DNA from: an uncultured Clostridia bacterium
GTDB taxonomy: Bacteria > Bacillota > Clostridia > Christensenellales > UBA1242
Assembly (NCBI GenBank): GCA_944372585.1
Contig: CALVZQ010000002.1
Coordinates: 31,425-95,424 of the forward strand
Length of the DNA stretch: 64,000 nucleotides
Direction: 5' to 3'
This document shows, one piece after another, positions 14,411 to 37,716 of this stretch. The position numbers and the translations under genes were made by a program. Numbering within the stretch: position 1 is the stretch's first letter; every line of letters starts with the position of its first letter. The notes beneath the pieces are model-generated. The model was not told where the DNA came from, did no database searches, and was given only the letters and a program-made list of their open reading frames with translations.

Positions 14411-14465
14411 AATCGTCTCCTTGCTTTATTATATTGATTTGTTGCTGAAAATATTTGAATGTATA

Positions 14466-17400
14466 TTACCTTTTGGAAAGTTCTTCTCTTTGTCTCTTGC
14501 GTTTTCTACTGAGCAAAATCAAAATTATGAGAATTATGATCAACAGCAAAAGCAAACCAATGATCAGATAAATATACCAAATAGATTCAGTTTTTTCGAC
14601 AATTTGGGCATTAAATCCAAGAACTCCAAAAAGTCCATTATAGTGAACTGGATCGTAGAAATAAGCCGTGTAAATTCCGTTGATCTTGTGATTGTTGAAA
14701 TTAAAATGCCCGTTGAATGAATTTTCTTCGGTTCCGATAGGTGTCCAGAATTTTGATGTCAACTGCAAATCTTCCATCAAAATGAAATAGCAGTCTTTAT
14801 ATCTGATTCCTTCTGAATTTAAGTTTCCACCATTGACATACGTCATCATCAAGATCAAATCCTCGACAGACCAAATTTGGTAAGGGTCGCCTGATGTTCC
14901 TCGACCTTCAAACGAATTGACTGCCAGCAACTCCTCTTCCCAAAGTTCACGTCTGTATTCAATTTGAATTTGAACATTTCCGACAATATTATTTTGTTCC
15001 ATGAAATCAGTTGTCAGAATGATTATTCCATCTTCAGAATAGAACTCATTCATGTTTTCATATGCTCTGTCATAGTTCCTGATTATGATATTGTCAATCT
15101 CATATCTTGCATTTGTCACAGTGACAATTCTGATTTCTTGTCCTTCGTCACAACTCACAAAATCCACTCTTTGTCCATTGAAGGTCGTATATCCTGCCAG
15201 ATTTATGTTGTTATAGTCAATTGCAATATCAGAAATATCAGTCTCAATAAAGTCTCTAGAAATATAAACCGCCAAAATTTCATCTTGGAATGTTGGGATT
15301 ATCTCCAATGTCTGTCCTGCACAATCAGAAGGAACCGACATCGCAAAATAATACATATTTCCAGTGTATTCAACAAAGGAGATTTCTGCTCTGTTCCACA
15401 CAACTGCAAATCCAAAATCAACACTAAGCACAAATGTCAGTTTGTCGCCAACTCTGACATCAACTTGAGTAAGAGTTTTCAAGAATTCATCACCACTGTA
15501 TCCTCCAAGCCTGTAAGTGTTGTAACTGTTGTCCAAAGATTGCACCCTCAGGTTTGTGATCTGACCAAATGTTGTGTCGTAAGCTTCAAAATTCAATGTC
15601 ACTGTCACACCTTGCAAACTCATAACCAAATTTGTTTTTTGTGTTATTGTCATTTTCAATGTTTTGTCAAAAGAGAATGATCCATCATCAGAATTTTCCC
15701 AACGCAAAAACTCATATCCTTCACCAGCAACAGCCTCAATATTGAATTCTTTTGTCGTGTCAACATATCCTTCATTCAACAACAATATTGCTTGATTGTC
15801 ACTTGATTCTTGATAGAGATTGAATGATCCCTCTCCACCAAAAATGGTCACTTCAACTTTCGCAAAATATATCACTTGAATCCTACACTCAACAATTCGA
15901 TCATATTCGTTTGTTGACCAAGGAATGTCATTTGAGAACGACGTCACGTCTGTGAGCCAAATTCCATTTGCGTTCTTTTGACTGATGACAAACTTATAGA
16001 ATCTGTATCCTTCAATTTCTGGCGCTGTTATGTGAATGTCTGTGTTGAATGAAACTTCAATGTAAAGCGGAGCGGTTTCATAGAACCAAGAATTTGAAAA
16101 ATCTATACCACTTATCATGTCTTGCGCAGTATAACCAGTTCTGACATCAGGAACAAACTCAAAACTGATTCTTGTTTTGAGATATGACCAATAGAGATAC
16201 AATTTGATTGTTATAACACCAGTTTCAGGATCAATGCTTGCATTTTCACTGAGTTCGTATTTTGATGTGAGCAAGTTCAAGACATATCCACTTTCTTGCC
16301 ATGCGTTGACGGCATTTCCTTGAGAATCAATATATTGCACACCCGCACCATTTTGATATGTGAAATATCCCTCAAAATTGTGTTGATCCTTCTGCAAATC
16401 AACTTTCAATTTTCCATTCAAGAAATAAATTCTTTCGTCAAAAATTGTGATGTTGTCAGCATTATATTGCGTCAGATTTAAAACAGAGTTAAAGTTTACA
16501 TTGTCAATTGTTGCAAGCAAATTTGTGTCTTCCATAAGTGCAACAGAATAAGACAAAGGGTTGACTTCAATCACAATGCTTGAAACTCCCAAATAATTTG
16601 CAACTCGGAAGGTTATCTTTCCAGTGTATCCAGATTCTGCAACATTAAGAGATTGATATGTGACACTGTTTGGCACAATGATGTTTCCACTGTCAACAAT
16701 TTGCAGATTGTCACCATCAACAATATATCCGGCACGAATCAAGGCATTGACTTCAAAATAGCTGTCAGTATATGCAGAAACGACAACAGCCGAATATTCC
16801 CTTCCAGATGTCCAAACTTTATTTCGATTTTCTTCTGTAATGTTGAAAGTGAATGCTCCACCTTCTACTTGAATGTCGTCATCGGTGAATAACAAGTTGA
16901 TAACATTTACTGTCGGTTTGAACAACACTTCAAAATACAATTCTTCGGTGCCTCCAACCAAACCGCTGATTTCAAAGAACAAATAGTCTTCCGTCTCTTG
17001 CAATTTTGAAATCAAAACATCTTGTCTGTTTGCCACTATGTTTGAGAACCTGTATCCTTCTTTCAATGTCATAACTTTGAGATAGATGATATCACCAGTG
17101 TATGCCATAACTTCAAAATTTTTGTTGCTGACAACTTGACCATCAACAAATGAATTTTCCATGTAGTGAATTCTTGTTCCCTCAACATAGCCATATCTGT
17201 TTACATCATTTCCGTTTGAATCTTGAAGAGCAATATATCCCACATCAACATCTTCCTCTCTTGCTCCATCAATATCTATTTTTGTTTCAAATTCAATGCT
17301 TAGACTATATGCCTTAACAACAATATATAGCTTGAAATCAACAATATTTTCATCAAGCAACAAACTTGAGATCTCAACTTCAACTTCTTCTTCATTGCTT

Positions 17401-20400
17401 TCTTGAATTTCTATATACTCAAATCTTTCACCATTTCTGAATCCATAACCATAGTACATATATCCAGTTGGAACTCTGAAGGTAATTGTTTTGTTGGATC
17501 CATAATAAAGTTCAATTCCTGCAATCTCTCTTCCTGTGTCCGAATCAAAATATCTTCCTCCTGAGATTTCTGTGTAAACAATTTCCGTCCTGTTTGGATC
17601 ATTGTATTCGTCATAGATTGTGTAATAGTTGTAAGTTGCAAATTGAATGTCAAATTTCAATGTGGAGAATATTGCATAGATGGTTTCATCTTGTGTGACT
17701 GTGTATTCCAGTGTCGCTTCAGTGCTGAAAAGATTTGTTCCGTCCTTGCTCCAACCTGCAAAATTGTAAAGTTCTTCTGCTTGATATGTCAATGTGACAA
17801 CAGAATTATATTCAACCTCTGCCTGAGTCTCCCCTTCAACAAAAGCAACATTTCCTGGAATGTCAACCATTTCTTGATTTTCGTTGAATGACACAACCTG
17901 CATATTGATGGTAAATCTTGCCAAGGTGTGACTAATCACAATTTCTCCGCTTGAATTGATTGCAGACAACTCAAAGAGGTAATTGTCAATGTATGCCCCA
18001 GTTTCGATCAATTGATATTCCACGTCAAAATCATCACATTCGTATGAGCCAAATGCATAGCCATGATCAAACTTGACATAAAAACTGAAAGTCGAACCAG
18101 TTTTTGCTGTAAACATTGGCAATTCGTTGATTGTGTTATATGTCCTTCCAGCAACTTCAATAGATTCAACCACCGAAGGATCTTCAAATGAGATTGCAAT
18201 CTGATTTTCGTTTTCTGTCACTGACACATATGCCGTCAAATCATTGCTAATTCCTTCAACTGTTGCTGTCAAAATGCCATTTTCTACATTTTTGTCAACT
18301 CTCAAAACAGAATCGCCTTCAAATGTTATGTCAGCAACAGCATATCCTGTTTCTGCAGAAATAATAAGTCTGAAAGTTCTTCCTGTTTCAACTCTGAACT
18401 GATTGTTTGTTATGTCAATTTCTGTTTCCTCTTCTGTCACATCATACGCAACCACAGAAGCCAAGTGTTCTCCTTGAATTGTCACAGTGTTTCTGACTGC
18501 AACAACTGGCAATTGATAACTTACATTCTCTGCTGGCATTGTGAATTTTACGTTTGCAGTCTTGTCAGCATTTATGACAACATCAAATCCTTGTGACCAA
18601 GCGGAAGAAATTTCATATCCATTGATTGGTGTAACTTTGAAAGTGATTTCTATGTTGTATGGCACATCATTTGCTATATATGATGAATTTGATTTGACAA
18701 AAGTGATGTTTGCTTCACTTATTGTTGCATATGGTGAAATCAATTCGAGAACATAATTGTCAATTGACCAATGAGCCGTCAAAGTGTGTGGTTCGGTGGA
18801 AGTCAGGACATCTCCACCATACACTCTTTGCTCAGAAGAATCAAACCAACCATCAAAGATGTGACCTTCTCTCATTGGATTTTCAACCCAACCAACTGCT
18901 GTCTGATAAGCCTGACCAAATGGAACTGAAATTTGTTGAGTGATTCCATCAAAGCCATAGTCAAGTGTGACAACAACTCCGATTTCTTCCAAATTTGGCT
19001 TCAAGGTCAATGTCATGCTTTCGTCATCAGAATTTGGCAAAAGTGTCGTAATGTTTGTAGATTCAAAAGCAGATTTCTCAACCGTTTCAGTTGAAGTGCT
19101 GTAACTTACGATTTCAAAGCCAGTTTTCAAAATGTTTGGCAAATCCGACAAATACATATCCTGCAAAGTCAAATAGTCTGTTTCCCATTGATATTGAGAA
19201 TTTCCAATATCCTCAAAGTCACTTGATTCAATAATCGCATCAGCATGCTCTTGAAGATCCAAAATGACGTTAACTTTTTGAATTGCAAATCTCACAACCA
19301 AATTGTAGGTTTGTCTAACATTCGTGATTGTAAACACTTCAGTTTCGCCATCACTGACGATTGATATAAAAGGCTCTGTCCCTGTGTATCTTCTTCCTTC
19401 CGAATCATAGAATCCTGCAAAATAGCAATGTTCATTTGGAATTGCTCTCAATGTGAGTGTGCTGTCGTAATCAAAATCTCCCAAGAAGTTTGTTGTTACA
19501 ACAGAATTTTCTGTGCTTGGATCTCCATCATCAATCACAACACTTCCATAACTTGCATTATTTCCATTTTCATCAGCAAGAACAATGGTGATTCTGTATT
19601 GATTTGTGTTCCAGTTTGCATTGAAAACAAAATTCAAATCAGAATGGTTTTTGTAATAATACCCCAACAAGTCATTCTCATCTGTAAGCAGAGCATTCAA
19701 AAATCTAACAGTGTTTTCGTCATTGCCAACAACAACTGAATATGTTGATCCGTCATAATCTTTGACAAGGGCATATGTTTGAACAAGATCTTCAAGATAG
19801 ACAAGTTCATCAGAGCCATTGACAATATTTTCAAACTTCAAGGTCCAATTGAGAAAAGCAAAACCGGTTTTTCCTGTCAAGGACGTTGGAAAGTTTTTGA
19901 CTGAATTGGTCGAACTTGATGCTGAATTTGCTGTCAAATATGATGTTGACATAAATGGGAATGCAAGTTGAGACAATGTTGGAAGTTGATTGTCATCAAC
20001 ATTTGATGTGACATCTTCACCGTCAGCATGATAATCAAATTCAATGCCAACCATAATTGCTTTGATGACACCATACATCCAAGGAGAAATGACATAGTTG
20101 TCACTATCTTCTCCTGTCAATTCAAAATTTATCTGAATCGCCTGCCCAACATATTCGTTCACATAACGGGCTGACAAAACCTGAACCGAATCAACATCTC
20201 CCTCTTCGCTTTGATTGATTCCCGAAACATCAAAAAGCAAACCGCCCTGTTCATCAGTGATTTTCACTTCATTTGTTTCGTCGTAGGTTTTTGTAAAGAT
20301 ATCTTGCAAACTAACATCTTTCTCAACAAGTTGAAGTTCCTTTGGTGTGATGATAAGTTTTGCGGTCAATTCATCTTGTTCGACATTATCAATGATGTAT

Positions 20401-26400: not shown

Positions 26401-29400
26401 ACATTTGCGGTGTTTGATGTAAGTGTCAACGAAATTGATGAGTTCATGTCTTGCGAAAGTCCAATTGACATATCTTGACCATTTTCATCAAGCGTGATGA
26501 CATATCCATTCTCAGAATGTCCATTTTTGAAATATTCTGCCAAATAAACTGTGTGTTGTTGACCATTGTAAGTCAAACTCGGCAATGTGTTATCTTCCAA
26601 TTCCAAAGAAAGATATGAGATGTCGAAAATCCAGCTTACATACAAGGTCAACACGATGTCCTCTGACATTGTTTGAGAGCATGACAACACATTTGTCGAG
26701 AACACCGATGAATCAGTGATCGCTTCCCTTCTTGATTGTCCAACAGCAAAAATGCCCGCAAAGGTGTATCCCTCTCTTTCCGGAACAAGTTCGCTGATTT
26801 TTATCTTCTGCGCTTCATTATCTCCGATAAACAAGTTTTCAAAAGTTGCACCATATCTAATGTTGAATTCCAAACCAAATTCTTTTTGACTTTCAGTTGG
26901 TATGTCGTTTTCTTGTCCTTGAAGAGCATAACTGTTTGCACTGTTCAACATGATCTTAATCGTATATGGACTTTCCACCCACACTGCATAGACAACAGAG
27001 TTTCCTGCAAAGATATAGTTGCCTTCTTCATCAAACAAAGAATATGTCTCTCCAACAATCAATCCCAAACTGTTGTCAAAAACAATTCTTCCTTCTGTGT
27101 TGTTATCCCCGTCCAAACTCCAGCCAACATCTTGATAACCAAGTTTTGTTATGTTTGTGATGTCTGTCAGACTGCCGAGGTTTGCAGAGTTCAACTCTTG
27201 CGAACCATAAATCAAAACATTGGAATCATAGGTTGTTGAAAGTATTATCGTGTCTGTGCCAACAAAAACTCCGCCATTTGGTTCAAATGTGATCATATAT
27301 GTGTTTGGTTGCCACAATCTGTAGAAATGAATTTCTTCGAAAGTGTCAACATTATCAAAATAAATTGTTGACAATTCCAACAGAGAACCATTGAGCAATT
27401 CCCCTCCTGTTGACTGCCAATAACCATTTGAAAGACGCGTATAACCCGTTCTGTTATAGAACAATTCATCAACAACGACATTCTGCAAAGAGTCCTCGTC
27501 ATTTATATATCCTGACAGACTATAATTCAAATACAGCATGCTTCCATAATATATTTCAGTTGTTGTGAAATATGTCTCTGTGGTCTCTGTTTCATTAATG
27601 TCAAACACTTGTCCATTCTTCATGTCTCCATATTCGCTGGTTCCTGTTCCAGAATGGAATGTCACTGTGGCTGTCTTTTGTCTGACAATTGGAGTGATTG
27701 AAAATTCATATATCAAATCAGTTTGTCCATCTTCCATCAATGCTTTTATCTTTGCGTATAAATCAATGCTGTATTCACTGTCTGCAGAAAGGTCAACACC
27801 CTTGTTTGAAACCGATTCAATGCTTTCTCCAAAAACATCATTTGCAATTGTTCCGTCCTGTCTATAGAGCCTAAATCCTGACAAATAATAACCATTTGCA
27901 TTGCTTCCTGCCATGATAAACTTAAAGTTTGTCAGTTGTGTGATTTCTCCAGATGATTGATCAGTTGAAAGATATTTGTATGACAACTGATTAGTCAAAC
28001 TTGAACCATTCTCAGCGAATGTTGAATCCATTTGAATTTGGAAACCGAGTCCCAAACTTGCAGCATTATAACTGCCTTCGGTCATAGAGCCATCTTCTTC
28101 ATAAACAATGACTTGGTTTGACAAAGTTACCATGGTTTGTTTTTTCTGATAGATTGCCGTAATAGTGATGTTATATGGATTGACTTCTTGGTAGTTTTCA
28201 TTATAATTTGTCATTCCGTCTGTAACAAAATATTGGCTGAAATATTCAAAATTCCAAGTTGCAACATTGCTTTCTGTTGGTGAGGAAGGGAGATAGCCAT
28301 TTTTCTGAATGTAACTTGAATAGTTTGATCCTTGAACAAACCACCCCCAAAATTCATATGCAAGATTGTCTGTCATGTGAGTCTCAATGGCGATTTCGTC
28401 TTCATATTTGATTGTTGGTTGATTTGCACTATAAGCAGTGTTGTTGACTGAAATAGATGTAACAATACCAGAAGCCTCTTCATCAACAAGCTCTTTGAGT
28501 CCATCAACATTGTTTCCATTGTTGTCAAGATCTTCGACATCAACATCAGCATCAACAAATTTTGTTGAAGATGCCATGTCATAAAGAACATCAGTGCAGA
28601 CAATTGTCATCTCATAATAACCTGGTTGAAGACCAGCAACATTTTCTGAACTTGAATATGAGAAAGTCAATGTGTAGACATCATCTTGATATTCCAAATG
28701 ATTAAGTTCGTTATAAATCCAATTGCCTTTTTCCACTGACACACTTGTTTCAAAATAACGTCCATTGAATGTGTTGAACTCATTTTCATATTCTCTGTTT
28801 AATTGATCGGCAAGTTCTTCATCTTCAATATCAGGAACCGTGTTGGCATTTGACACATTGATTTGAACGTTGAAAGAATCCGTTGTTTCTTGAACTGTGG
28901 TTGATCCTGGATAATTTTCTGCATTATACAATATGATGCTGCCATTATCTTCATTTCCAGTCACACTCGAACTTCCACGATTTGCAAAAAATCTGTAATA
29001 TCTTGATGAGGTCACACTAACTTCAAATGATGAGTCAGTTGTGACAGCATAGATTTCACTTGTAATTGAAAGAATTGGTTTTTGCGTCACTGGTGGTGCA
29101 CCATCAGAACCAAATTCCACAACTTCTCCAGCTGAATTGAGATACATTGTTCTGAATGCAAACAAAGCTTGAGTGTAGATTGTTGAAATTTCAATTGGTT
29201 CAATCGCTCTATTGTAGATATCCACAAGGTAAAGCAAATCTTCAAAAGTCATCAAAATTTTTGTCAAATGATTGGATTCAGGATTTCTCTTTATTTCTCT
29301 CGTGTAAGAACTGCCGGTCGCAGAGTTCAGATTGTTTAACATGGTCACATCATCAAATTCAGTTGTCGTTGTATCTGTGGAGAATATGAAGGCAAAAGTT

Positions 29401-32400
29401 GAATATGAATAATGTCTAAGAATGTATTGATAGCTGTTTTTGTAAACAATGCTGACCAATTCATCTGTTTTGGAATAGGCGCCCGAACTTTGAAAGTCAA
29501 TTTCATACAAATAAACAACATTTCTCTCAATCATCTGTCCATCTTCTTCAATTTCTTCAACTTGTTCTTCATATAGATAATATCTTGAAGAATTGTTGTT
29601 AAAGTCATATCTAAAGATTGCTCTTCCAGAATTGATATATTGCCCTTCCGCCACCTCAAAAGAGTCGTATATAGAATTTGAAGTCATAACCCTTTTTTTG
29701 AAATAATCAAATCCAATGTATTGATTCTCGGCATTTGTGTTTACTGATGAAATGTAACTGTTGCGTATGGTGTTTCCTTCTTCATCTTTTTGTTGGTCAT
29801 CAACCATTGATTGCAAAGAAACAAAGGAATTCGATTGAAAGTTAAGCATTGAAACATTGCTCCAACCTGAAACCATTGGCGACAAGCCAAAATAAACACC
29901 TTCACCAACATTTATACTGTTGTTGACTCTTGCTCTTTGAATTATTATATTGATTGAAAAGTCATAACATAAATTGAAGAATTGAACAGTTCTCTGATTT
30001 GTATAAGCAACTTCATTATATACATAGTAGGAACTGTTTGAAGAGCGTTTGAGATTTCCAAAGTTTGTGTCAATATTGTTCAGATATTCTTCTTCATCAA
30101 ATGTCAGTTCTCCGGAGAATGTGTAACCCGTCTTTAATTTTATGCCAAGTTGTATGTAATTATCTACTCTGTCACTATACATTGTGTCAAAGTAGAAGTT
30201 TGCCACATTATTTTCAACAATTGCATATGTTGTTTCGTCATTAACAGCATTTCCTCCAAATGAGAGTGACAAAGTCTCAACAACACTTGCAACGTCCAGT
30301 TTTCCTGCAAAGGTATTTTGGTCTGTGGAAAAATTGAGAGTAAGTTTGAATTTGTCCTCATCATCTTTTTCCAAACCTTCCCATTCGGCATAAAGATTCA
30401 CAAGATAAACGCCTTGATCTGTCAGTTCTGCATCTGCAAATGTGCTGTTGACAAGAATTTCAGACGCGAGCAGCACATCATCATTTCCGCTTACATCTGC
30501 TGAATTTATGATCTGTTCAGAAAATCTTGAATTTTTGTAACTTTGATAAATCCCTTTTATGTCAAAACTGCCATCTCTCAATGGCGCCACTTCCCCATTT
30601 TCATCAACATAATCTGGCACAACAAAGATTTCAGGGTAATCTGAAAGAAAAGAATCATATTTCAAATAGAAAATTTTGTAAACATCGCCATTTGAATCAA
30701 TCTTCACATCAGATGTACTGTGATAATCAATTGACGAGATATCAAAATTGTCTTGCTCATATCTGTTGTAAATCACTTTAACTCGAAAAGCACTGTTTAT
30801 ATCCACCCCATCAGGGTCGTTTGGATCAAATCCATAATTTCTCCAAATAACATCAAAACCAAGCAACGGTTTATAAGAAAAATTTACGTTTAATGTTTTA
30901 ACCTCTTCTGCATCATCTTGCAATGTGTGCAAATTGTATGGATCCTGGCTTGGATTGGAATATGCCGCTCCAGATGTGTCAGAAGAATATTTATAATAAG
31001 ATGCTTTAAATCCCCCATCTTTGATTATCACATCACTTTTTCCGAAAAGGTGAGAAAGTTGAGGCAAAGACAATCCAAAAGTGCTGTCAATGTCGGAAAT
31101 GTCAAGGATGTCACAATTCACAATTCCTGAAACTATTGGTTCACTTCTGTCTAATTCATTTCTAGGCAACAACAAAATTTGATGAACTCCCTTATATGTA
31201 GTCTTGGAAGCATCATAGAATGTTCCCCCATTTCCATTAAGTTCGATGTCATATCCATAATATATTGTCGCTTGATTGCTGGCTGAAGTTGATCTTGTCC
31301 CCGAAAGATCGATGTATCCATAAAATCCATCATTGACAATCAACTGTCCTGTGTAATCAATTGAGTTGGAGCCATAAAAAACATAGATTTTCGCATTTCT
31401 GGCAACTCTTCCAACAGCATACACTTTGCTTCCATCACCCAATGTTCCGCTTGCTTGTCCATAGAGATTGTCAGTGCAGTTGATCAAATATGTATCTCCA
31501 GAGGCATATGCAACAAAAGTTCCAACATAACCTGTGCCAACCTGTCCTTGATTTATGTATCTAACATTTTGAATATTCAAATTTTTGATGACTGCATTGC
31601 TTGTGTTTCCAAACAGACCATGATAACTAAACTGTTCTTGCAAAGAACATGTCATGTTGTAAATTGTGTATCCATTTCCATCAAAAACACCACTGAATGG
31701 ATTTCCCACTCCACCAATTGGTTGCCACGTTCTTCCGATCAGATCAATGTTGTTTTGGAGTGCATAATAAGCCCCTCTTTTGTGATTGAAGGAAACATAT
31801 CCCAAATCTCCAGCCGTTCTGATTAAATATGGTGATTCTGCAGTTCCTTGTCCTTCAAGAACAGAATCATTGCTATATTCATTGTCATTGTTGGCACTTC
31901 CCAATCTGTTGTTTTGGACTAAGTAAGGATATCCTCCATTAACGCTTGATGAGATGCCCCAAATAAGCGATTCAGAAGAAAAGTCCCAACTGTTTGTCGA
32001 TGTCCAATATCTCTCACTGCCATAAAATCCCTCTGTCCTCGCAAGTTGATCCAGATTCACAATCTGGCTTGAGATATCAGAAGAACCAGCAATTTTTTGA
32101 TTTACATCATAATACAAACATGTCGCCGTCGGTGTTCTTGACTCGCTCAAATTGGAATCAAGATAATAAAGATATCTGGCAACACCATTTCCATATGTCT
32201 CATTTGTACTGCAAACATAACTTCCAAATTTAAGACTTCCAATATGAAAACTGTCCGTAAGAGTGGTGTTTGTGGAGCTTGCAGAATTGAAGTATGCAAC
32301 AATTCCACCTAGATATTTCCCATATCCATCGCCGGAACTTCCCCCATCAATATCTCCAACATGGTAAAAGTTATTCACGGAAAAATATTCATTATTGACT

Positions 32401-33386
32401 CTTCCAACAAGTCCTCCCAGTTCACTTCTGGTGCTTCCTGTGTTTGGAGCATTTGATATGTTTGCAACGGTATATGAATTTGCAATGGTGGTTTTTCTGT
32501 TTCTACTTTCACCTGCAGCATATCCCATCAATCCACCAATATATCTGTTGGCAGAAGTTGAACGAATTGTCAAATCACCATCATAATTGAATTTATCAAG
32601 TGAAGAAGCATTAACGGTCCCTGCAAAACCACCAACTCTTATTGCACTTGCTCTTATTGAACTGATATTTATGTCGACCTCACTTTTGCAAGTTTCAATA
32701 TTTACTCTTTCAGCATCACCAACAAATCCTCCAATATGAAAAACAGAAGATGTTGATCCCGAACCAGAAATAGTCAGACTTCCTTCGGCCGAGCAATTGT
32801 AAAAATATGAATATTCAAAATTTTTATCTGAAACCCCAGTGTTGTTGAAATAGCCCACCATGCTGCCGATATAATAGTTGCTTAGTGAAGAGGAAATTCC
32901 AATGTTGATGTTGACATCTTTAAGATGAAGATTGCTTATTCTTGAATAATCGGTCAAACTACCAAAAAAACCAACATATCCAGAATTGTCATTTTTGATT
33001 GACATATTGAAGATTGAATAACCCTGTCCATAAAACAAACCTTGAAATTTGCTTGTGGAATTGCCAATAGGAGTCCACTCTTTATTGTCCAAATCAATGT
33101 CAGTCTCAAGATAAACAGTCTTATCCCTATAACTTGTGCCATTATTGACACTATATGCAAAATAAGAGAGTCCACGAGCACTTCTTATGTAAAAAGTATT
33201 TTCGTTCAAATTGTACCAATCACTATCTTCCAATTGGTTTTCATCTGTGACAGTTTGTCCCGTCCAAACACTTGCATCATGACTGACAGCATCTGCAGTG
33301 TCCGATACAGAATTAAAACAACAAAGAGTCGAACCAAACCCAAAAAGCAAAACAAACAAACTAAACAAAATTGATTTCCTTTTCAT
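14466..33386 (-). CDS. giant secreted cell-surface protein (6,306 aa) with C-terminal TM anchor. A mosaic of GLUG-like beta-helix, MBG/YDG-like and Listeria-Bacteroides-repeat-like modules
   Basis: Uninterrupted 18.9-kb ORF. Start trimmed from TTG 33458 to ATG 33386, which has GGGAG 6 nt upstream and begins a signal peptide (MKRKSILFSLFVLLFGFGSTLCC). The TTG extension overlaps the predicted promoter. Confidence 0.9.
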   Translation of the reverse strand: MKRKSILFSLFVLLFGFGSTLCCFNSVSDTADAVSHDASVWTGQTVTDENQLEDSDWYNLNENTFYIRSARGLSYFAYSVNNGTSYRDKTVYLETDIDLDNKEWTPIGNSTSKFQGLFYGQGYSIFNMSIKNDNSGYVGFFGSLTDYSRISNLHLKDVNINIGISSSLSNYYIGSMVGYFNNTGVSDKNFEYSYFYNCSAEGSLTISGSGSTSSVFHIGGFVGDAERVNIETCKSEVDINISSIRASAIRVGGFAGTVNASSLDKFNYDGDLTIRSTSANRYIGGLMGYAAGESRNRKTTIANSYTVANISNAPNTGSTRSELGGLVGRVNNEYFSVNNFYHVGDIDGGSSGDGYGKYLGGIVAYFNSASSTNTTLTDSFHIGSLKFGSYVCSTNETYGNGVARYLYYLDSNLSESRTPTATCLYYDVNQKIAGSSDISSQIVNLDQLARTEGFYGSERYWTSTNSWDFSSESLIWGISSSVNGGYPYLVQNNRLGSANNDNEYSNDSVLEGQGTAESPYLIRTAGDLGYVSFNHKRGAYYALQNNIDLIGRTWQPIGGVGNPFSGVFDGNGYTIYNMTCSLQEQFSYHGLFGNTSNAVIKNLNIQNVRYINQGQVGTGYVGTFVAYASGDTYLINCTDNLYGQASGTLGDGSKVYAVGRVARNAKIYVFYGSNSIDYTGQLIVNDGFYGYIDLSGTRSTSASNQATIYYGYDIELNGNGGTFYDASKTTYKGVHQILLLPRNELDRSEPIVSGIVNCDILDISDIDSTFGLSLPQLSHLFGKSDVIIKDGGFKASYYKYSSDTSGAAYSNPSQDPYNLHTLQDDAEEVKTLNVNFSYKPLLGFDVIWRNYGFDPNDPDGVDINSAFRVKVIYNRYEQDNFDISSIDYHSTSDVKIDSNGDVYKIFYLKYDSFLSDYPEIFVVPDYVDENGEVAPLRDGSFDIKGIYQSYKNSRFSEQIINSADVSGNDDVLLASEILVNSTFADAELTDQGVYLVNLYAEWEGLEKDDEDKFKLTLNFSTDQNTFAGKLDVASVVETLSLSFGGNAVNDETTYAIVENNVANFYFDTMYSDRVDNYIQLGIKLKTGYTFSGELTFDEEEYLNNIDTNFGNLKRSSNSSYYVYNEVAYTNQRTVQFFNLCYDFSINIIIQRARVNNSINVGEGVYFGLSPMVSGWSNVSMLNFQSNSFVSLQSMVDDQQKDEEGNTIRNSYISSVNTNAENQYIGFDYFKKRVMTSNSIYDSFEVAEGQYINSGRAIFRYDFNNNSSRYYLYEEQVEEIEEDGQMIERNVVYLYEIDFQSSGAYSKTDELVSIVYKNSYQYILRHYSYSTFAFIFSTDTTTTEFDDVTMLNNLNSATGSSYTREIKRNPESNHLTKILMTFEDLLYLVDIYNRAIEPIEISTIYTQALFAFRTMYLNSAGEVVEFGSDGAPPVTQKPILSITSEIYAVTTDSSFEVSVTSSRYYRFFANRGSSSVTGNEDNGSIILYNAENYPGSTTVQETTDSFNVQINVSNANTVPDIEDEELADQLNREYENEFNTFNGRYFETSVSVEKGNWIYNELNHLEYQDDVYTLTFSYSSSENVAGLQPGYYEMTIVCTDVLYDMASSTKFVDADVDVEDLDNNGNNVDGLKELVDEEASGIVTSISVNNTAYSANQPTIKYEDEIAIETHMTDNLAYEFWGWFVQGSNYSSYIQKNGYLPSSPTESNVATWNFEYFSQYFVTDGMTNYNENYQEVNPYNITITAIYQKKQTMVTLSNQVIVYEEDGSMTEGSYNAASLGLGFQIQMDSTFAENGSSLTNQLSYKYLSTDQSSGEITQLTNFKFIMAGSNANGYYLSGFRLYRQDGTIANDVFGESIESVSNKGVDLSADSEYSIDLYAKIKALMEDGQTDLIYEFSITPIVRQKTATVTFHSGTGTSEYGDMKNGQVFDINETETTETYFTTTEIYYGSMLYLNYSLSGYINDEDSLQNVVVDELFYNRTGYTRLSNGYWQSTGGELLNGSLLELSTIYFDNVDTFEEIHFYRLWQPNTYMITFEPNGGVFVGTDTIILSTTYDSNVLIYGSQELNSANLGSLTDITNITKLGYQDVGWSLDGDNNTEGRIVFDNSLGLIVGETYSLFDEEGNYIFAGNSVVYAVWVESPYTIKIMLNSANSYALQGQENDIPTESQKEFGLEFNIRYGATFENLFIGDNEAQKIKISELVPEREGYTFAGIFAVGQSRREAITDSSVFSTNVLSCSQTMSEDIVLTLYVSWIFDISYLSLELEDNTLPSLTYNGQQHTVYLAEYFKNGHSENGYVITLDENGQDMSIGLSQDMNSSISLTLTSNTANVDSLGGLSFGVRNVGNYVVNLNIIVSDDANYLNLGNVFETNYEFSISVQEANIRTEITNLVYLQNIKRIMAPFINDEFNLELASCVSLDSFTSLMKTKDATITGEVNDELNMQIYQYTMFKYFMLLDSNNGANHKLYKEWTFADYLEFMSDETNSENVANTVSNLNYFAFYDYANTENVVEIDGYDDLRLVSDHVQNVSLEIAIDRVVILSGTVSLVRPKNMYQMRVYLTDVVANTNNIENYDVQFDSDGDAYISTEVAYVLPQPLQIANLEETKSAYYQEGIENREVEWAGNRENIQYNGETLYLIENGIYVSADLFTSTGGDYYTDTVFSFTNDQNYLYFDNVSIVMETVDGATMSYTDISTYFKLILEENDIFTILNTDGIANVVVSAYYLTTENNMTSFELVDETLATEILRITRVYFNVDGTEESVYEAEGLEIGAYSSNGVMIYEIRENNANEVSIMLGPNVTKVVFAVESLDISEYISLYKWTDIEQYYVDGTMESSNSMTLDMSLVESTEDGLNELSYYAIFTDLVLVNYNLNFPSGYGEDVEDTSIMKLGEATANDLAIPHVNGLNASSLTVKSPTGEILDYTEIFLGEDLGNGRTYVGITEETKHAVVTIDVKWEVSQIEYAQILQEYKTAVNSFSSLAVTDIVLIYNENNGVYDYSYVWYFNDQQISTDQVMRLEGQGSYEESGNYRLVITATLNPEYYVSLEDASKTSTQIELTFSLQFVRHLLDSVTLPDAETTVKTYDGMEHLTDWSVEIDYFVFNRYSDDYEDEVTTEQLYYVTTGSVYFKIFFNGGEVSSMRNAGEYRIMVCFDEGIFDTSGVDSSNLEFIYTINAASVDLSEFDFSESKQFNSVEPSLRREIHLSNENVTIQLRRDAGEDVGEYYLYFEDIIQTYKSNYTFTFGDTVIFENGTLTDDASTTSIGLFTITSSGTLRLSYQITEQNPATVSAEYSDEGYSLKLTEDFKLQIYCGTELFKEFALNLFDVSSGANISSSEVLNILKTKILDLQPRLFNSENYETAYDSMTYTYNFVMGEEISKYFTNVEFVSGYSFTINSIIIDISNFVFEKTYDGETTVYVDTTGAEIDLDTYSGAYITAVYSTAHAGEDIRVDLSLQRKNSDVNLTNYSLSSNFVFGTINKLSATMTFALNKDTYTYGEVSVNNVSNLIGSYTVTNSQNEGITDLLVSGYFTISYSLPDDVKTNEKGFLYKGNYTINVNAEFQDFDMTINNPSFEIEALQYTRQISPNYIQITVLDKIQEYYEDVVTIQSTGDVITLKLFAENLVVGQTASMGNYDLLIVSGSETFLDGSIVVSVNEENNGLQVLNAETTVYVRIDDETILTNNTYNGQNYFVQGDVSKTIRVSNETTSKSSTLSFFLKEANESGEIVENSIASENVNFSELTIVFEEGNAQISDAGSYKLNIFATCAEYTNVVFAEDYYLSIDPVTVNISQFTFEKEYDGTTIYTISEFNEKISGDTVSILVQFDSAAADTGKTVALYLSGMDMNNYELSASTGVGTINKATAVVELVSTEVEYGEVSLTQPLAYTVKVDGANLLSSQYSLMLDIENAQYSSADYLNVGTYNVIMTSQSSTNYTLVFNPVELIVNKRDISIVLSVNGEFSAEFNSPEALSSKFTCNYMTELYETIQVEMTRTGGTSVGYYKVLSGESKDTNYNVVSVVDNSLLGAFRITPVRERLYLLLSEEVSVSASSGGDIATITYDGNLYDTILIEERAENSGVYRLVFTNSENTSVRQQFDLNFYTYDSSTLTYNFADVTVEGLTSTIQFLYPTTVRNVGTYQIYSSGTTSESYEVKMGKEGEIYCFYLTIAKRELYFTNAQLSKIFDNKDAVFEYADANEVLTGIVENEEMSLNISFKQNGEIVKYVGTGYTVEAEIVGETISNYNLNMSSEDGTVVSASIERADMSFIINSQSYTYGDDFELKYKYQTEVDLTGYDVSRLGIQLVAPDISSYYSTSNALKVGEYDMILIFSAQDFKIGGYIIDNVEQDELTAKLIITPKELQLVEKDVSLQDIFTKTYDETNEVKITDEQGGLLFDVSGINQSEEGDVDSVQVLSARYVNEYVGQAIQINFELTGEDSDNYVISPWMYGVIKAIMVGIEFDYHADGEDVTSNVDDNQLPTLSQLAFPFMSTSYLTANSASSSTNSVKNFPTSLTGKTGFAFLNWTLKFENIVNGSDELVYLEDLVQTYALVKDYDGSTYSVVVGNDENTVRFLNALLTDENDLLGYYYKNHSDLNFVFNANWNTNQYRITIVLADENGNNASYGSVVIDDGDPSTENSVVTTNFLGDFDYDSTLTLRAIPNEHCYFAGFYDSEGRRYTGTEPFISIVSDGETEVFTITNVRQTYNLVVRFAIQKVNVILDLQEHADAIIESSDFEDIGNSQYQWETDYLTLQDMYLSDLPNILKTGFEIVSYSTSTETVEKSAFESTNITTLLPNSDDESMTLTLKPNLEEIGVVVTLDYGFDGITQQISVPFGQAYQTAVGWVENPMREGHIFDGWFDSSEQRVYGGDVLTSTEPHTLTAHWSIDNYVLELISPYATISEANITFVKSNSSYIANDVPYNIEITFKVTPINGYEISSAWSQGFDVVINADKTANVKFTMPAENVSYQLPVVAVRNTVTIQGEHLASVVAYDVTEEETEIDITNNQFRVETGRTFRLIISAETGYAVADITFEGDSVLRVDKNVENGILTATVEGISNDLTAYVSVTENENQIAISFEDPSVVESIEVAGRTYNTINELPMFTAKTGSTFSFYVKFDHGYAFGSYECDDFDVEYQLIETGAYIDNYLFELSAINSSGEIVISHTLARFTINMQVVSFNENQEMVDIPGNVAFVEGETQAEVEYNSVVTLTYQAEELYNFAGWSKDGTNLFSTEATLEYTVTQDETIYAIFSTLKFDIQFATYNYYTIYDEYNDPNRTEIVYTEISGGRYFDSDTGREIAGIELYYGSNKTITFRVPTGYMYYGYGFRNGERFEYIEIQESNEEEVEVEISSLLLDENIVDFKLYIVVKAYSLSIEFETKIDIDGAREEDVDVGYIALQDSNGNDVNRYGYVEGTRIHYMENSFVDGQVVSNKNFEVMAYTGDIIYLKVMTLKEGYRFSNIVANRQDVLISKLQETEDYLFFEISGLVGGTEELYFEVLFKPTVNVINLLFTDDDIQVEGGAFTFNITEENRNKVWTSGREYSAVVVSAYTDSYFEVNALIRAGYIVDGDNLQIVDSGNIIVPNSVTYQSLNVAESGYTGKITFRVANYLGVSSIVIEVNPLSYSVALMEDTNLLATIDNVNFNSVLNLTQYNADNITIFDERIYFLNGKLKVDLQKDQHNFEGYFTYQNGAGVQYIDSQGNAVNAWQESGYVLNLLTSKYELSENASIDPETGVITIKLYLYWSYLKTRISFEFVPDVRTGYTAQDMISGIDFSNSWFYETAPLYIEVSFNTDIHITAPEIEGYRFYKFVISQKNANGIWLTDVTSFSNDIPWSTNEYDRIVECRIQVIYFAKVEVTIFGGEGSFNLYQESSDNQAILLLNEGYVDTTKEFNIEAVAGEGYEFLRWENSDDGSFSFDKTLKMTITQKTNLVMSLQGVTVTLNFEAYDTTFGQITNLRVQSLDNSYNTYRLGGYSGDEFLKTLTQVDVRVGDKLTFVLSVDFGFAVVWNRAEISFVEYTGNMYYFAMSVPSDCAGQTLEIIPTFQDEILAVYISRDFIETDISDIAIDYNNINLAGYTTFNGQRVDFVSCDEGQEIRIVTVTNARYEIDNIIIRNYDRAYENMNEFYSEDGIIILTTDFMEQNNIVGNVQIQIEYRRELWEEELLAVNSFEGRGTSGDPYQIWSVEDLILMMTYVNGGNLNSEGIRYKDCYFILMEDLQLTSKFWTPIGTEENSFNGHFNFNNHKINGIYTAYFYDPVHYNGLFGVLGFNAQIVEKTESIWYIYLIIGLLLLLIIILIILILLSRKRKRQREELSKR
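14469..14585 (-). other. C-terminal TM helix plus polybasic tail (membrane anchor) of giant protein 1
   Basis: IWYIYLIIGLLLLLIIILIILILL followed by SRKRKRQREELSKR and a stop. No LPXTG-like motif precedes it. Confidence 0.8.
15650..19650 (-). other. region rich in Listeria-Bacteroides (Flg_new/InlB B-repeat)-like modules
   Basis: Signatures G-[YHF]-x-F-x-G-W/F such as REGHIFDGWFDSSEQRVYGG (about 18845-18876), NFAGWSKDGTNLF (about 17739-17766), YEFLRWENSDDG (about 15690-15720), HCYFAGFYDSEGRRY. An additional copy YMITFEPNGG...GYQDVGWSLDG lies near 27290. Boundaries approximate. Confidence 0.5.
20050..26600 (-). other. central array of at least 8 divergent MBG/YDG-like modules
   Basis: Recurrent (T/K)-Y-(D/N)-G...N-Y-x-L...G-T-I-N-K patterns. 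Examples: FEKTYDGETTVY...NYSLSSNFVFGTINKLSATM (about 22944-22979), FEKEYDGTTIY...NYELSASTGVGTINKATAVV (about 21810-21839), LTYNGQQHTV (about 26546-26580). Boundaries approximate. Confidence 0.5.
31360..33200 (-). other. N-terminal head: two W-x-P-I-G...F-x-G-x-F-x-G-x-G-Y-x-I-x-N-M modules with about 7 GG[FLI][VAM]G (GLUG-like) repeats
   Basis: WTPIGNSTSKFQGLFYGQGYSIFNM, then IGGFVGDA, VGGFAGTV, IGGLMGYA, LGGLVGRV, LGGIVAYF. Second module GQGTAESPYLIRTAGDL...WQPIGGVGNPFSGVFDGNGYTIYNM (the EGQGTAESPY coding sequence is at about 31830-31860). Boundaries approximate. Confidence 0.6.
33288..33386 (-). other. Sec-type signal peptide of giant protein 1
   Basis: MKRKSILFSLFVLLFGFGSTLCCFNSVSDTADA: basic n-region, hydrophobic core, A-x-A-like end. 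STLC is not a good lipobox. Confidence 0.7.
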
Positions 33387-33429
33387 ATCATTCTCCCTTG
33401 ATTTTATGCAACCAAACAAATTCAAAAAT

Positions 33430-33458
33430 ATTATACTAAATTTTCTAGGAGTAAGCAA
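33430..33458 (-). promoter_or_regulatory. sigma-A-type promoter of giant gene 1: TTGCTT-17 nt-TATAAT
   Basis: Revcomp of 33453-33458 is TTGCTT and revcomp of 33430-33435 is TATAAT, with an exact 17-nt spacer. Predicted leader of about 37 nt to ATG 33386. Confidence 0.6.
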
Positions 33459-33609
33459 ATATTTTTTCTGGAATTATATTATTTAATATATATAATTACC
33501 GCAAGTTTTAAACATCATTTGAATCAATCAAAAGACAAAAATCAAATTCAAAAACATGTGCAAAATACAAATTTTTTGTTTTTTCAGAAACACAAATTAT
33601 AAAAATATG

Positions 33610-33677
33610 AAAAAATGCAAAAAAATACGTATTTTTTCAATTTTTAACGAATTTTTACGTATTTTTTTGCATTTTTT
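33610..33677. repeat. perfect 21-bp AT-rich inverted repeat (26-nt spacer) overlapping the trpS stop codon; probable trpS terminator or insulator hairpin
   Basis: 33610-33630 AAAAAATGCAAAAAAATACGT is the exact reverse complement of 33657-33677 ACGTATTTTTTTGCATTTTTT. On the minus strand a U-rich tract follows. Confidence 0.8.
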
Positions 33678-36565: not shown

Positions 36566-36589
36566 ATTTTTTCTCCTTTCTTATAACAA

Positions 36590-36615: not shown

Positions 36616-36625
36616 TCTGAATTTA

Positions 36626-37708: not shown

Positions 37709-37716
37709 ATCTCCTC

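What the first reader, a model, noticed from the sequence alone, without database searches (positions are those of the whole stretch)
14466..33386. 6,306-aa giant secreted, tail-anchored surface protein embedded between trpS and uppP
This is one uninterrupted 18,921-nt ORF, 30 percent of the window, with an RBS-supported ATG and a Sec signal peptide. From N- to C-terminus I recognise the following.
- Two head modules (W-x-P-I-G...F-x-G-x-F-x-G-x-G-Y-x-I-x-N-M) with about 7 GLUG-like GG[FLI][VAM]G turns.
- About 4.5 kb (roughly 26,900-31,350) in which I recognise no family.
- At least 8 MBG/YDG-like modules.
- Listeria-Bacteroides-type repeats.
- A third G-R-G-T-S-G-D-P-Y module, then a TM helix and a polybasic tail.
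The modules are highly diverged from one another, and I saw no long DNA-level repeats, so this does not look like a recent tandem amplification. The gene sits inside a co-directional housekeeping array with no integrase, transposase or tRNA nearby. ORFs of this size are rare in bacteria and the function is unknown.
Basis: partly seen in the sequence, partly recalled or inferred. Interest (0 to 1): 0.8.

Follow-up and report, generated by a model that had tools for sequence, protein, structure and literature searches.

The report
Giant membrane-anchored bacterial surface fibre protein
This is a real, conserved 6,306-residue gene from an uncultured gut-type Clostridia bacterium that most likely encodes a very long surface fibre used for attachment; it belongs to a known class of protein, but nearly half of its sequence matches no described family.

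Summary
The ORF is real. It lies on the minus strand at 14466..33386 (6,306 aa, 708 kDa, pI 4.15). It has an RBS-supported ATG and its own conserved sigma-70-type promoter. It sits between trpS and uppP.

Independent assemblies reproduce it. Colinear orthologues occur in at least six lineages, and the two complete ones are 6,208 and 6,235 aa. dN/dS against an orthologue is 0.10-0.33 in every 300-codon window. It is therefore neither an artefact nor a pseudogene.

The only hydrophobic segments are an N-terminal signal peptide and a C-terminal helix followed by a polybasic tail. There is no LPXTG and no HExxH.

Recognisable parts:
- one full GLUG head, a shorter second head and a membrane-proximal third head-start;
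- three robust YDG modules and one probable one, not the eight or more claimed;
- four Listeria-Bacteroides repeats.

Residues 681-3375 match no family. An exhaustive search of 1.84 billion representative proteins with aa 701-1899 found only this family. There are no DNA repeats and almost no internal protein repeats.

Best reading: a Sec-exported, type-I membrane-anchored fibrillar adhesin-like protein. It is a new member of a known kind and of moderate interest. Structure prediction of the unknown region failed.

The parts
33430..33458 (-). Sigma-70-type promoter TTGCTT-17 nt-TATAAT, about 45 nt upstream of the ATG
   Evidence: Read directly from the sequence. The TTGC..-17-TATAAT core is conserved in the upstream regions of L005 and the distant L008.
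33391..33399 (-). Ribosome-binding site AAGGGAGAA, 4 nt before the ATG
   Evidence: Sequence. The GGAG core is conserved in L005 and L008.
14466..33386 (-). Giant CDS: 6,306 codons plus stop; 708.5 kDa, pI 4.15
   Evidence: Orthologue colinearity. dN/dS 0.10-0.33. Identical in L009/L010 and 99.2-100% identical in L001.
33282..33386 (-). Signal peptide region (aa 1 to about 35): MKRK, a hydrophobic core at aa 4-28, and a possible A-x-A site (A-D-A, aa 31-33). No lipobox.
   Evidence: Hydropathy. The conserved ...ASVW start of the mature part is seen in the orthologues. The cleavage site itself is inferred.
32187..33269 (-). Head 1 (aa 40-400): cap with WTPIG at aa 104, then GLUG rungs (GG[FL]xG at aa 219, 252, 284, 324, 360)
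   Evidence: phmmer hits to GLUG/M26_N proteins down to E = 3e-26. The L005 orthologue scores 36.9 bits on Pfam GLUG against a cutoff of 20.5. AF2 gave pLDDT 80-95 and all-beta rungs for aa 40-380. Motifs.
31347..31865 (-). Head 2 (aa 508-680): GQGTAESPY cap, WQPIG at aa 554, and a few rungs
   Evidence: hhsearch against head 1 gave 99.4% probability. 220 GLUG-type proteins match only this part of aa 500-1700. There is a weak Peptidase_M26_N hit, E = 0.008.
23262..31346 (-). Family-specific region (aa 681-3375) with no family above any cutoff. It holds two weak Listeria-Bacteroides-like modules (aa about 2030-2097 and 2202-2270). The most variable part is aa 600-1800.
   Evidence: Pfam and NCBIfam gave nothing. 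PDB sequence search gave nothing. An exhaustive HMMER search with aa 701-1899 found only 3 family members. Conservation profile. The AF2 model was unusable, pLDDT 38.
20067..23261 (-). YDG/MBG region (aa 3376-4440). Robust YDG modules at aa 3394-3465, 3781-3845 and 4357-4435; a probable one at 4157-4236; a super-repeat 3376-3580 ~ 3763-3950.
   Evidence: Pfam YDG scored 50.2 bits against a cutoff of 25; MBG_2 scored 17.5 bits, below cutoff. Self-comparisons.
15567..19889 (-). Listeria-Bacteroides (InlB B-repeat) region (aa 4500-5940). Modules at aa 4821-4874, 4897-4958, 5180-5241 and 5869-5925. The G[YHF]xFxxW signature occurs at aa 4508, 4841 and 5890.
   Evidence: Flg_new_2 scored 59.7 bits (cutoff 23.6) and Flg_new 40.1 bits (cutoff 27). 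Module positions. The signature occurs 3 times against 0.005 expected.
14592..14918 (-). Head 3 (aa 6157-6265): GRGTSGDPY cap plus WTPIG at aa 6214, directly before the TM helix. It lies in one of the most conserved stretches (72% identity to both P0022 and P0023).
   Evidence: hhsearch against heads 1 and 2 gave 96-98% probability. Motifs. Conservation.
14511..14582 (-). C-terminal transmembrane helix IWYIYLIIGLLLLLIIILIILILL (aa 6269-6292)
   Evidence: Kyte-Doolittle maximum of 3.87. Conserved in P0022, P0023, L011 and L012.
14469..14510 (-). Polybasic cytoplasmic tail SRKRKRQREELSKR (aa 6293-6306)
   Evidence: Sequence. The tail is conserved in the orthologues. Its cytoplasmic location is inferred from the positive-inside rule.
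33619..33667 (-). Terminator-like hairpin (AAAAAATACG...CGTATTTTTTT) just after trpS, upstream of the giant gene's promoter
   Evidence: Sequence. Conserved in L005. The consensus terminator scan did not call it, so it is tentative.
33676..34734 (-). trpS (upstream neighbour)
   Evidence: Pfam tRNA-synt_1b, E = 2.7e-55. It occupies the same position in L005, L009 and L010.
13649..14410 (-). uppP/bacA (downstream neighbour), 55 nt after the giant gene's stop codon
   Evidence: Pfam BacA, E = 1.1e-60. It occupies the same position in L001-L004, L011 and L012. No terminator-like site lies between the two genes.

Best explanation
The gene encodes a 708-kDa type I membrane-anchored surface fibre, a fibrillar-adhesin-like protein, in an uncultured low-GC Clostridia bacterium.

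**Shown**
- The gene is real, has a conserved promoter-like element of its own (expression itself is untested), and is under purifying selection.
- It has an N-terminal signal-peptide-like segment and a single C-terminal hydrophobic helix followed by a polybasic tail.
- It has no sortase motif and no metallopeptidase motif.
- Its N-terminus carries GLUG-type heads.
- Its C-terminal 45% contains YDG and Listeria-Bacteroides (InlB B-repeat) modules.
- The distal part, next to the heads, is the fastest-evolving. The membrane-proximal part is the most conserved.

**Inferred**
- The protein is exported N-terminus-first through Sec.
- The C-terminal helix acts as a stop-transfer anchor, leaving the KRKR tail in the cytoplasm.
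- The acidic, beta-rich ectodomain of about 6,240 aa passes through the wall as a chain of many small modules. If extended, it would be of the order of 0.2-0.3 micrometre.
- This chain presents the two N-terminal GLUG heads, and the variable region behind them, far from the cell. There they bind a ligand on host mucus or glycans or on another microbe.
- The ligand is unknown.
For: **The gene is real**
- One ORF with an RBS.
- Identical in L009 and L010, and 99.2-100% identical in L001 from another sample.
- Colinear orthologues of 6,208 and 6,235 aa, plus partial ones.
- dN/dS 0.10-0.33 throughout.
- Within-species differences are 55 synonymous and 16 non-synonymous.

**Topology**
- Only two hydrophobic segments, at the two ends; polybasic tail; no LPXTG.

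**Heads**
- GLUG/M26_N homologues at E = 3e-26.
- The orthologue passes the Pfam GLUG cutoff.
- AF2 gave confident all-beta rungs for aa 40-380.

**Stalk modules**
- YDG, Flg_new and Flg_new_2 score above their cutoffs.
- The InlB B-repeat is described as a beta-grasp spacer or 'periscope' domain (bioRxiv 10.1101/2024.12.31.630911).

**Fit to the class**
- The N-terminal adhesive end, stalk and C-terminal anchor layout matches the definition of Firmicutes fibrillar adhesins (PMC8286594).
- Ebh is a precedent for a megadalton protein anchored at its C terminus in the membrane (PMC4856396).

**Evolutionary gradient**
- The giant protein is 62% identical between genomes whose flanking proteins are 90-97% identical.
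- It is most variable at aa 600-1800 and most conserved at aa 5200-6306.
Against: - No binding activity, ligand or expression data exist.
- 43% of the protein (aa 681-3375) has no recognisable domain and could not be modelled, so an enzymatic or other module could be hidden there.
- The head model was lost before it could be compared with solved structures. The beta-solenoid fold of the heads is therefore not confirmed against the PDB.
- GLUG domains have no experimentally defined function to my knowledge.
- Unlike most fibrillar adhesins, the stalk is not made of recognisably repeated domains.
- Signal-peptide cleavage and membrane topology are inferred from sequence rules only.
Confidence: 0.6

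Rival explanations
1. A non-adhesive surface spacer, shield or envelope-integrity protein. The giant fibre would act mainly through its size. It could sterically mask the cell surface against antibody, phage or other cells, or influence cell size and envelope properties, as proposed for S. aureus Ebh. The GLUG heads would then have no specific ligand.
For: - The topology matches Ebh: signal peptide, megadalton ectodomain and C-terminal membrane anchor. Ebh is described as being of unknown function and as interfering with clumping by steric hindrance (PMC4856396).
- Length is conserved among the complete proteins (6,208, 6,235 and 6,306 aa), and the partial orthologues are colinear. This suggests that length itself is selected.
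- The protein is very acidic, pI 4.15.
Against: - The N-terminal heads are homologous to domains found at the ends of many adhesin-like proteins.
- The distal region evolves fastest, as expected for a ligand- or immune-exposed tip.
- There is no sequence similarity to Ebh's repeat domains; Pfam found none.
Confidence: 0.2
2. A surface-anchored enzyme carrier. The unrecognised 2,700 aa would contain one or more catalytic modules, such as a protease, glycosidase or other cell-surface-degrading activity, displayed on a stalk. IgA proteases of the M26 family and the giant proteins of Omnitrophota are examples of such carriers.
For: - GLUG heads are shared with M26 metallopeptidases. P0025 is named 'M26 family metallopeptidase', and there is a weak Peptidase_M26_N hit.
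- Giant bacterial proteins often carry hidden enzymatic domains that are seen only by structure prediction (bioRxiv 10.1101/2023.11.21.568195).
- The region could not be modelled here.
Against: - There is no HExxH motif anywhere.
- No catalytic Pfam or NCBIfam family appears even at permissive E-values.
- There is no PDB sequence relative.
- Composition and propensity are beta-rich throughout, with no distinct island.
- The matches to M26 proteins cover only the head (6-16% of the query).
Confidence: 0.12
3. An assembly artefact or a decaying pseudogene. The long ORF would be a chimeric or collapsed metagenomic assembly, or a no-longer-functional remnant.
For: - Contigs from several samples break, or carry N gaps, inside the gene (L001-L004 and L010).
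- The most distant relative (L008) has one in-frame TAA.
Against: - There are no DNA repeats that could cause collapse.
- The sequence is identical in two other assembled contigs, one an ENA scaffold and one a Logan contig, and 99% identical in another sample.
- Orthologues are colinear and uninterrupted in five other lineages, with conserved flanks.
- dN/dS is 0.10-0.33 in every window.
- The promoter and RBS are conserved.
Confidence: 0.02

Closest known systems
Fibrillar adhesins / FA-like proteins of Gram-positive bacteria (as defined by Monzon et al. 2021, PMC8286594)
   Same: - Extracellular, single-chain protein.
- Putative binding region at the N-terminus.
- Long stalk.
- Anchor at the C-terminus.
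- Fast evolution.
   Different: - The anchor is a TM helix with a basic tail rather than LPXTG.
- The stalk is not a run of recognisably repeated domains, and 43% of it matches no family.
- Size is about 6,300 aa.
- Length is conserved between lineages.
GLUG motif-containing surface proteins, including the N-terminal region of M26 IgA1-specific metallopeptidases (PF07581, PF05342)
   Same: The head modules (G-x-G-T-x-x-x-P-Y cap, W-x-P-I-G...F-x-G-x-F-D-G-x-G, then GG[LF]xG rungs) are homologous, E down to 3e-26.
   Different: - There is no M26 catalytic domain and no HExxH.
- The best-matching GLUG proteins listed are about 600-3,000 aa long, and nothing matches beyond the heads.
- Here there are three head-starts, one of them directly next to the membrane anchor.
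Ebh / giant staphylococcal surface protein (about 1.1 MDa)
   Same: A secretion signal, a megadalton ectodomain, and anchoring at the C terminus in the cytoplasmic membrane rather than by sortase (PMC4856396).
   Different: - There is no sequence relationship.
- Ebh is built from many near-identical helical repeats (own knowledge).
- This protein is beta-rich by propensity and essentially non-repetitive.
Giant Clostridia proteins from mammalian gut metagenomes with Listeria-Bacteroides repeats (noted in West-Roberts et al., bioRxiv 10.1101/2023.11.21.568195)
   Same: Gut-type Clostridia, very large predicted surface proteins, Listeria-Bacteroides repeat domains, and a proposed role in binding.
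   Different: - Those are reported as 10,000-30,000 aa, with dockerin, LRR and other domains.
- This family is 6,200-6,300 aa with GLUG heads.
- It was not retrieved as a relative of anything beyond its own six lineages.
Periscope proteins (length-variable repeat stalks; Whelan et al. 2021, own knowledge; concept cited in bioRxiv 10.1101/2024.12.31.630911)
   Same: Small beta-grasp or Ig-like modules that project a functional end away from the cell.
   Different: - Periscope proteins vary in length through near-identical DNA repeats.
- Here there are no DNA repeats.
- Length is held within about 1.5% among the three complete proteins, which share only 48-57% identity.

Membership tests
Fibrillar adhesin-like proteins (PMC8286594 criteria) | Extracellular (secretion signal) | tested here: met
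   The N-terminus has MKRK, a hydrophobic core at aa 4-28 and a possible A-x-A site (A-D-A, aa 31-33). This is sequence-rule level only.
Fibrillar adhesin-like proteins (PMC8286594 criteria) | Adhesive region at a protein terminus | tested here: inconclusive
   GLUG-type heads sit at the N-terminus. Binding function is untested, and GLUG has no defined ligand.
Fibrillar adhesin-like proteins (PMC8286594 criteria) | Stalk of repeated domains forming a rod | tested here: inconclusive
   YDG x3-4 and Flg_new x4 are recognised. The remaining 2,700 aa or more are unassigned, and the AF2 model was unusable.
Fibrillar adhesin-like proteins (PMC8286594 criteria) | Surface anchoring motif or domain | tested here: met
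   A C-terminal TM helix with a polybasic tail, conserved in the orthologues.
GLUG motif-containing proteins (PF07581) | Significant similarity to PF07581-bearing proteins over the head | tested here: met
   phmmer E = 3e-26 to a 'GLUG motif-containing protein'. 21 hits and 220 cover the heads.
GLUG motif-containing proteins (PF07581) | Pfam gathering score for the GLUG model | tested here: inconclusive
   The window protein scores 11.4 bits against a cutoff of 20.5. Its 62%-identical orthologue scores 36.9 bits.
M26 IgA1-specific metallopeptidases (ZmpA/B/C type) | Catalytic M26 domain with an HExxH zinc site | tested here: not met
   There is no HExxH in 6,306 aa and no catalytic-domain hit even at E <= 5. 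Only a weak N-terminal-region hit was seen (E = 0.008).
Listeria-Bacteroides repeat / InlB B-repeat-containing proteins (PF09479, PF18998) | Pfam gathering score | tested here: met
   Flg_new_2 scored 59.7 bits (cutoff 23.6) and Flg_new 40.1 bits (cutoff 27). TIGR02543 scored 19.4 bits, just below its cutoff of 20.95.
YDG / MBG domain proteins (PF18657, PF18676) | Pfam gathering score, and the number of modules | tested here: met
YDG scored 50.2 bits against a cutoff of 25. MBG_2 scored 17.5 bits, below its cutoff.
Sortase-anchored LPXTG surface proteins | LPXTG-type motif, hydrophobic segment and basic tail at the C-terminus | tested here: not met
   No LP.T[GAN] motif occurs anywhere. The hydrophobic segment and basic tail are present without the sorting motif.
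Ebh-type giant staphylococcal proteins | Ebh-type repeat domains (FIVAR/GA/DUF1542; own knowledge of the family) | tested here: not met
   No such Pfam family was found at E <= 5 in any tile. Only the topology is analogous.
Periscope proteins | Near-identical tandem DNA repeats giving length variation | tested here: not met
   TRF found 0 arrays and the direct-repeat scan found 0 families. Complete proteins are 6,208-6,306 aa.

The most novel reading that the evidence does not exclude
The family is a length-constrained, non-repetitive 'molecular ruler' fibre. Its family-specific 2,700-aa segment would contain folds or activities not yet described. It would mediate a specific partner contact in an uncultured gut Clostridia clade. 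One possibility is co-aggregation with another microbe, as seen between Christensenella and Methanobrevibacter in flocs (PMC7002349). That link is pure speculation, and the Christensenellales placement rests only on one record title.
Probability: 0.12. Interest if true: 0.6.

Novelty: new member of a known kind. Interest (0 to 1): 0.4.

Why it matters
Giant surface proteins are among the least understood gene products of gut anaerobes. They probably decide what a cell sticks to.

This one offers a clean case:
- It is a single-copy, syntenic gene conserved in at least six lineages.
- Its ends are well defined.
- It has an N-terminal head that could be expressed.
- It contains a 2,700-aa stretch that is invisible to all current family libraries.

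It also runs against the usual picture of adhesin stalks as arrays of near-identical repeats whose number varies. Here there are no repeats, and length is held constant while the sequence diverges to below 50% identity.

If the heads' ligand were found, it would give a function to the widespread but uncharacterised GLUG domain. The finding does not open a new class of system.

Tried and rejected
**Homology searches**
- The same search with aa 679-2162 found nothing.
- A profile of aa 500-1700 recovered only head-2 matches.
- PDB sequence searches of both halves gave only chance hits, E >= 0.2.
- NCBIfam gave nothing above its cutoffs.

**Structure prediction**
- The first AF2 run (aa 1-700, 16-sequence alignment) gave a good head model, but the model was lost on the server before Foldseek could run.
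- Rerun with 4 sequences, it gave pLDDT 38, and its Foldseek hits were meaningless: none at E <= 0.001.

**Internal repeats**
- BLAST, phmmer, HMM and hhsearch tile-versus-tile comparisons found no modules beyond those listed.
- Iterative HMM searches seeded on the YDG and Flg_new modules did not extend the lists either.

**Other checks**
- Giant ORF 1 and giant ORF 2 share no detectable similarity.
- Rfam and tRNA scans of the window were empty.
- A propensity scan found no clearly helical island.

**Readings rejected**
- Lipoprotein: there is no lipobox, and the Cys is not conserved in the orthologues.
- Sortase substrate: there is no LPXTG.
- M26 protease: there is no HExxH.
- Mobile or horizontally acquired island: GC is uniform and synteny is conserved.
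Full report
**1.

The window contains one uninterrupted reading frame on the minus strand. It runs from a TTG at 33458 to the stop at 14466 (6,330 aa). The first ATG, at 33386, gives 6,306 aa and is preceded by AAGGGAGAA four bases upstream.

About 45 nt further upstream lies TTGCTT-17 nt-TATAAT (33458..33430). Its core is conserved in the upstream regions of two other lineages, L005 and the distant L008. Before the promoter, just after trpS, there is an A-tract/T-tract hairpin (33667..33619). It is also present in L005, but the consensus terminator scan did not call it. The gene therefore appears to have its own promoter; whether it is transcribed is untested.

trpS and a gltX-type synthetase lie upstream. 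uppP/BacA and a P-type ATPase lie downstream, all on the same strand. The other scanned genes of the window are housekeeping: dnaB, bipA, pflB and its activase, a pseudouridine synthase, holB, ksgA, tatD and L9. There is no tRNA and no Rfam match. GC is flat at 0.33-0.37 across the gene and its flanks.

**2. It is a real gene, not an artefact**

TRF and a direct-repeat scan find nothing in the 19 kb, so a collapsed-repeat assembly is not plausible.

Independent assemblies agree:
- An ENA scaffold of 176.5 kb (L009, on which the gene is called as exactly 6,306 aa) is 100% identical to the window over 23676-44734.
- A Logan contig from run ERR4096376 (L010) is 100% identical over 23676-39089.
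- A scaffold from another sample (L001) covers window 3649-25113 at 99.2-100% identity.
- Together these cover the whole gene, apart from two short scaffold gaps of N in L001 (window 14655-15342 and 23078-23292).

Between L001 and the window, the giant gene carries 55 synonymous and 16 non-synonymous differences. The 11 kb of flank are identical.

Orthologues exist in other lineages:
- L005, L006 and L012 belong to one species. They are 62-64% identical over aa 1-4500 and 70% over aa 2227-6306.
- L011 is 64% identical.
- P0023 is 6,235 aa and 57% identical.
- P0022 is 6,208 aa and 48% identical.
- L008/P0024 is 32-35% identical. It has a single in-frame TAA after codon 1747, and the frame then continues colinearly.

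All are colinear from end to end where sequence is available. trpS lies upstream in L005, and uppP plus the ATPase lie downstream in L011 and L012. Nei-Gojobori dN/dS against L005 is 0.10-0.33 in each of sixteen 300-codon windows.

**3. What is in the protein**

Hydropathy gives only two hydrophobic segments, aa 4-28 and aa 6269-6292. The second is followed by SRKRKRQREELSKR. There is no LPXTG. The protein is 708.5 kDa with pI 4.15. No lipobox is present, and the two N-terminal cysteines are not conserved in the orthologues.

*Heads.*
- The N-terminal 700 aa hit 21 proteins, mostly annotated or Pfam-tagged as GLUG (PF07581) or Peptidase_M26_N (PF05342), with E down to 3e-26.
- The window protein's own Pfam GLUG score is sub-threshold (11.4 bits), but its orthologue's is 36.9 bits against a cutoff of 20.5.
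- AF2 with a 16-sequence alignment gave pLDDT 80-95 and short-strand rungs for aa 40-380 and 510-640. That model was lost before it could be compared with the PDB.
- W-x-P-I-G...F-x-G-x-F head-starts occur at aa 104, 554 and 6214. GG[FLIV]xG turns occur at aa 219, 252, 284, 324 and, more loosely, 360. There is no HExxH.
- hhsearch links the three head-starts at 96-99% probability.
- Head 1 is a full module. Head 2 is shorter. Head 3 is a cap of about 100 aa directly before the TM helix and lies in one of the most conserved stretches.

*Stalk modules.*
- YDG scores 50.2 bits against a cutoff of 25. MBG_2 is below its cutoff.
- Three YDG modules are robust (aa 3394-3465, 3781-3845, 4357-4435) and one is probable (aa 4157-4236).
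- Flg_new_2 (59.7 bits) and Flg_new (40.1 bits) are above their cutoffs. Four modules are clear: aa 4821-4874, 4897-4958, 5180-5241 and 5869-5925.
- Two weaker Flg_new-like modules lie at aa about 2030-2097 and 2202-2270.

*Unassigned region.*
- Residues 681-3375 (about 8.1 kb) match nothing in Pfam, NCBIfam or PDB sequences.
- An exhaustive HMMER scan of 1.84 billion representative proteins with aa 701-1899 returned only P0022, P0023 and P0024.

*Internal repeats.* Beyond the pairs listed, BLAST, phmmer, HMM and profile-profile self-comparisons find no internal repeats.

**4. Evolutionary pattern**

Between the window genome and the L005 genome, BipA is 96.6% identical, DnaB 94%, GltX 90% and TrpS 89.6%. 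The giant protein is 62% identical.

Within the protein, aa 600-1800 are the most variable: 27-42% identity to P0022 and P0023, with indels. Residues 5200-6306 are the most conserved, at up to 82%.

The lengths of the three complete proteins differ by less than 1.6%.

The protein therefore evolves fast, under purifying selection, without gaining or losing modules. Change is concentrated at the end predicted to be farthest from the cell.

**5. Mechanism**

*Shown:* the features in sections 1-4.

*Inferred from established rules* (Sec signal peptides, stop-transfer anchors, the positive-inside rule):
- The protein is exported N-terminus-first.
- The C-terminal helix stays in the membrane with the basic tail in the cytoplasm. 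This makes it a type I membrane protein, not a 'tail-anchored' one.
- The acidic ectodomain of about 6,240 aa extends through and beyond the wall.

This layout matches the definition of fibrillar adhesins in Gram-positive bacteria, with the adhesive end N-terminal and the anchor C-terminal (PMC8286594). InlB B-repeats are beta-grasp spacer or 'periscope' domains (bioRxiv 10.1101/2024.12.31.630911).

I therefore take the heads, plus the variable region behind them, to be the ligand-binding tip and the rest to be stalk (confidence 0.6). If the stalk is made of 70-100-aa modules of 3-4 nm each, its length would be of the order of 0.2-0.3 micrometre. This is an estimate, not a measurement.

The rivals are:
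- a size-based shield or spacer as proposed for Ebh (PMC4856396);
- a hidden enzyme in the unassigned region;
- an artefact or pseudogene, which is essentially excluded.

**6. Comparison and novelty**

The protein is a member of the GLUG-, YDG- and Listeria-Bacteroides-repeat-bearing surface proteins of Firmicutes by homology of those parts. It is analogous in topology to Ebh. It fails the tests for M26 peptidases, LPXTG proteins, Ebh-type repeat proteins and periscope proteins.

Giant Clostridia gut proteins with Listeria-Bacteroides repeats have already been noted in a survey (bioRxiv 10.1101/2023.11.21.568195).

What is unusual:
- the absence of repeats;
- the conserved length;
- the fixed trpS-giant-uppP position;
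- the third head-start next to the membrane;
- 43% of the sequence having no detectable relatives outside six lineages.

P0022 and P0023 are each known from a single Logan contig, and none of the three relatives carries a name in the source collections.

I class it as a new member of a known kind, with interest 0.4.

**7. Organism**

The closest genome records are titled 'uncultured Clostridia bacterium' and 'uncultured Catabacter sp.'. Catabacter is now treated as Christensenella, in Christensenellales. The window's 35% GC, and the fact that this rests on one record title, make any placement below class level tentative.

Noticed in passing
window 43503-54767 (-): A second giant ORF of 3,754 aa lies 10 kb upstream on the same strand. 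It has a lipoprotein-like signal (..VLMAC|S). No Pfam family scores above its cutoff, even in tiles, and it has no detectable similarity to the first giant. It is called as 3,746 aa on L009. Together the two genes take up 47% of the window.
   Followed up: partly
L008 5422-5424 (GCA_054291705.1, JAZPIX010000019.1): In the most distant relative, the giant gene is interrupted by a single in-frame TAA after codon 1747. The same frame then continues for at least 1,701 aa, colinear with window aa 1832-3530. This could be a pseudogene, a sequencing error or a split gene; it is undecided.
   Followed up: partly
L001 1822-1921 and 9657-9756; ends of L002, L003, L004 and L010: Short-read contigs from five samples end, or have scaffold gaps, inside the giant gene although it has no DNA repeats. 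Between L001 and the window, all 71 differences fall in the giant gene, and the 11-kb flank is identical. All but one of the 16 non-synonymous changes cluster at aa 4379-4838. Strain-level polymorphism in this gene may be what breaks the assemblies.
   Followed up: partly
window 14411-14465: uppP starts 55 nt after the giant gene's stop codon, with no terminator-like site between them. A weak promoter-like site lies inside the giant's 3' end at 14599..14571. A cell-wall recycling gene may therefore depend on read-through from a 19-kb gene or on an internal promoter.
   Followed up: no
L005 19346-23692: Pfam scans of the orthologue's tiles returned no family even at E <= 1. Yet these tiles contain YDG modules nearly identical to those that score 50 bits in the window protein. 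I cannot explain this difference. Negative Pfam results on these tiles should not be trusted.
   Followed up: partly
window 33676-36565 and the whole window: There is no T-box or any other Rfam family at gathering score anywhere in the 64 kb. This includes the regions upstream of the two aminoacyl-tRNA synthetase genes (gltX-type and trpS), where Firmicutes often have T-box leaders (the expectation is from my own knowledge).
   Followed up: no
window 2381-3664, 36626-37762, 37717-38529, 42598-43452, 55090-55560 (all -): Five ORFs of 156-427 aa have no Pfam match at E <= 0.001-0.01. The pair 36626-38529 is conserved next to dnaB in L005, L009 and L010.
   Followed up: no
window 14511-14582 (aa 6269-6292): The C-terminal TM region gives a sub-threshold NCBIfam match to NF041738, 'GGIII-like transmembrane region' (17.2 bits against a cutoff of 22). 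This may be only composition, or it may hint at a shared anchor type.
   Followed up: no
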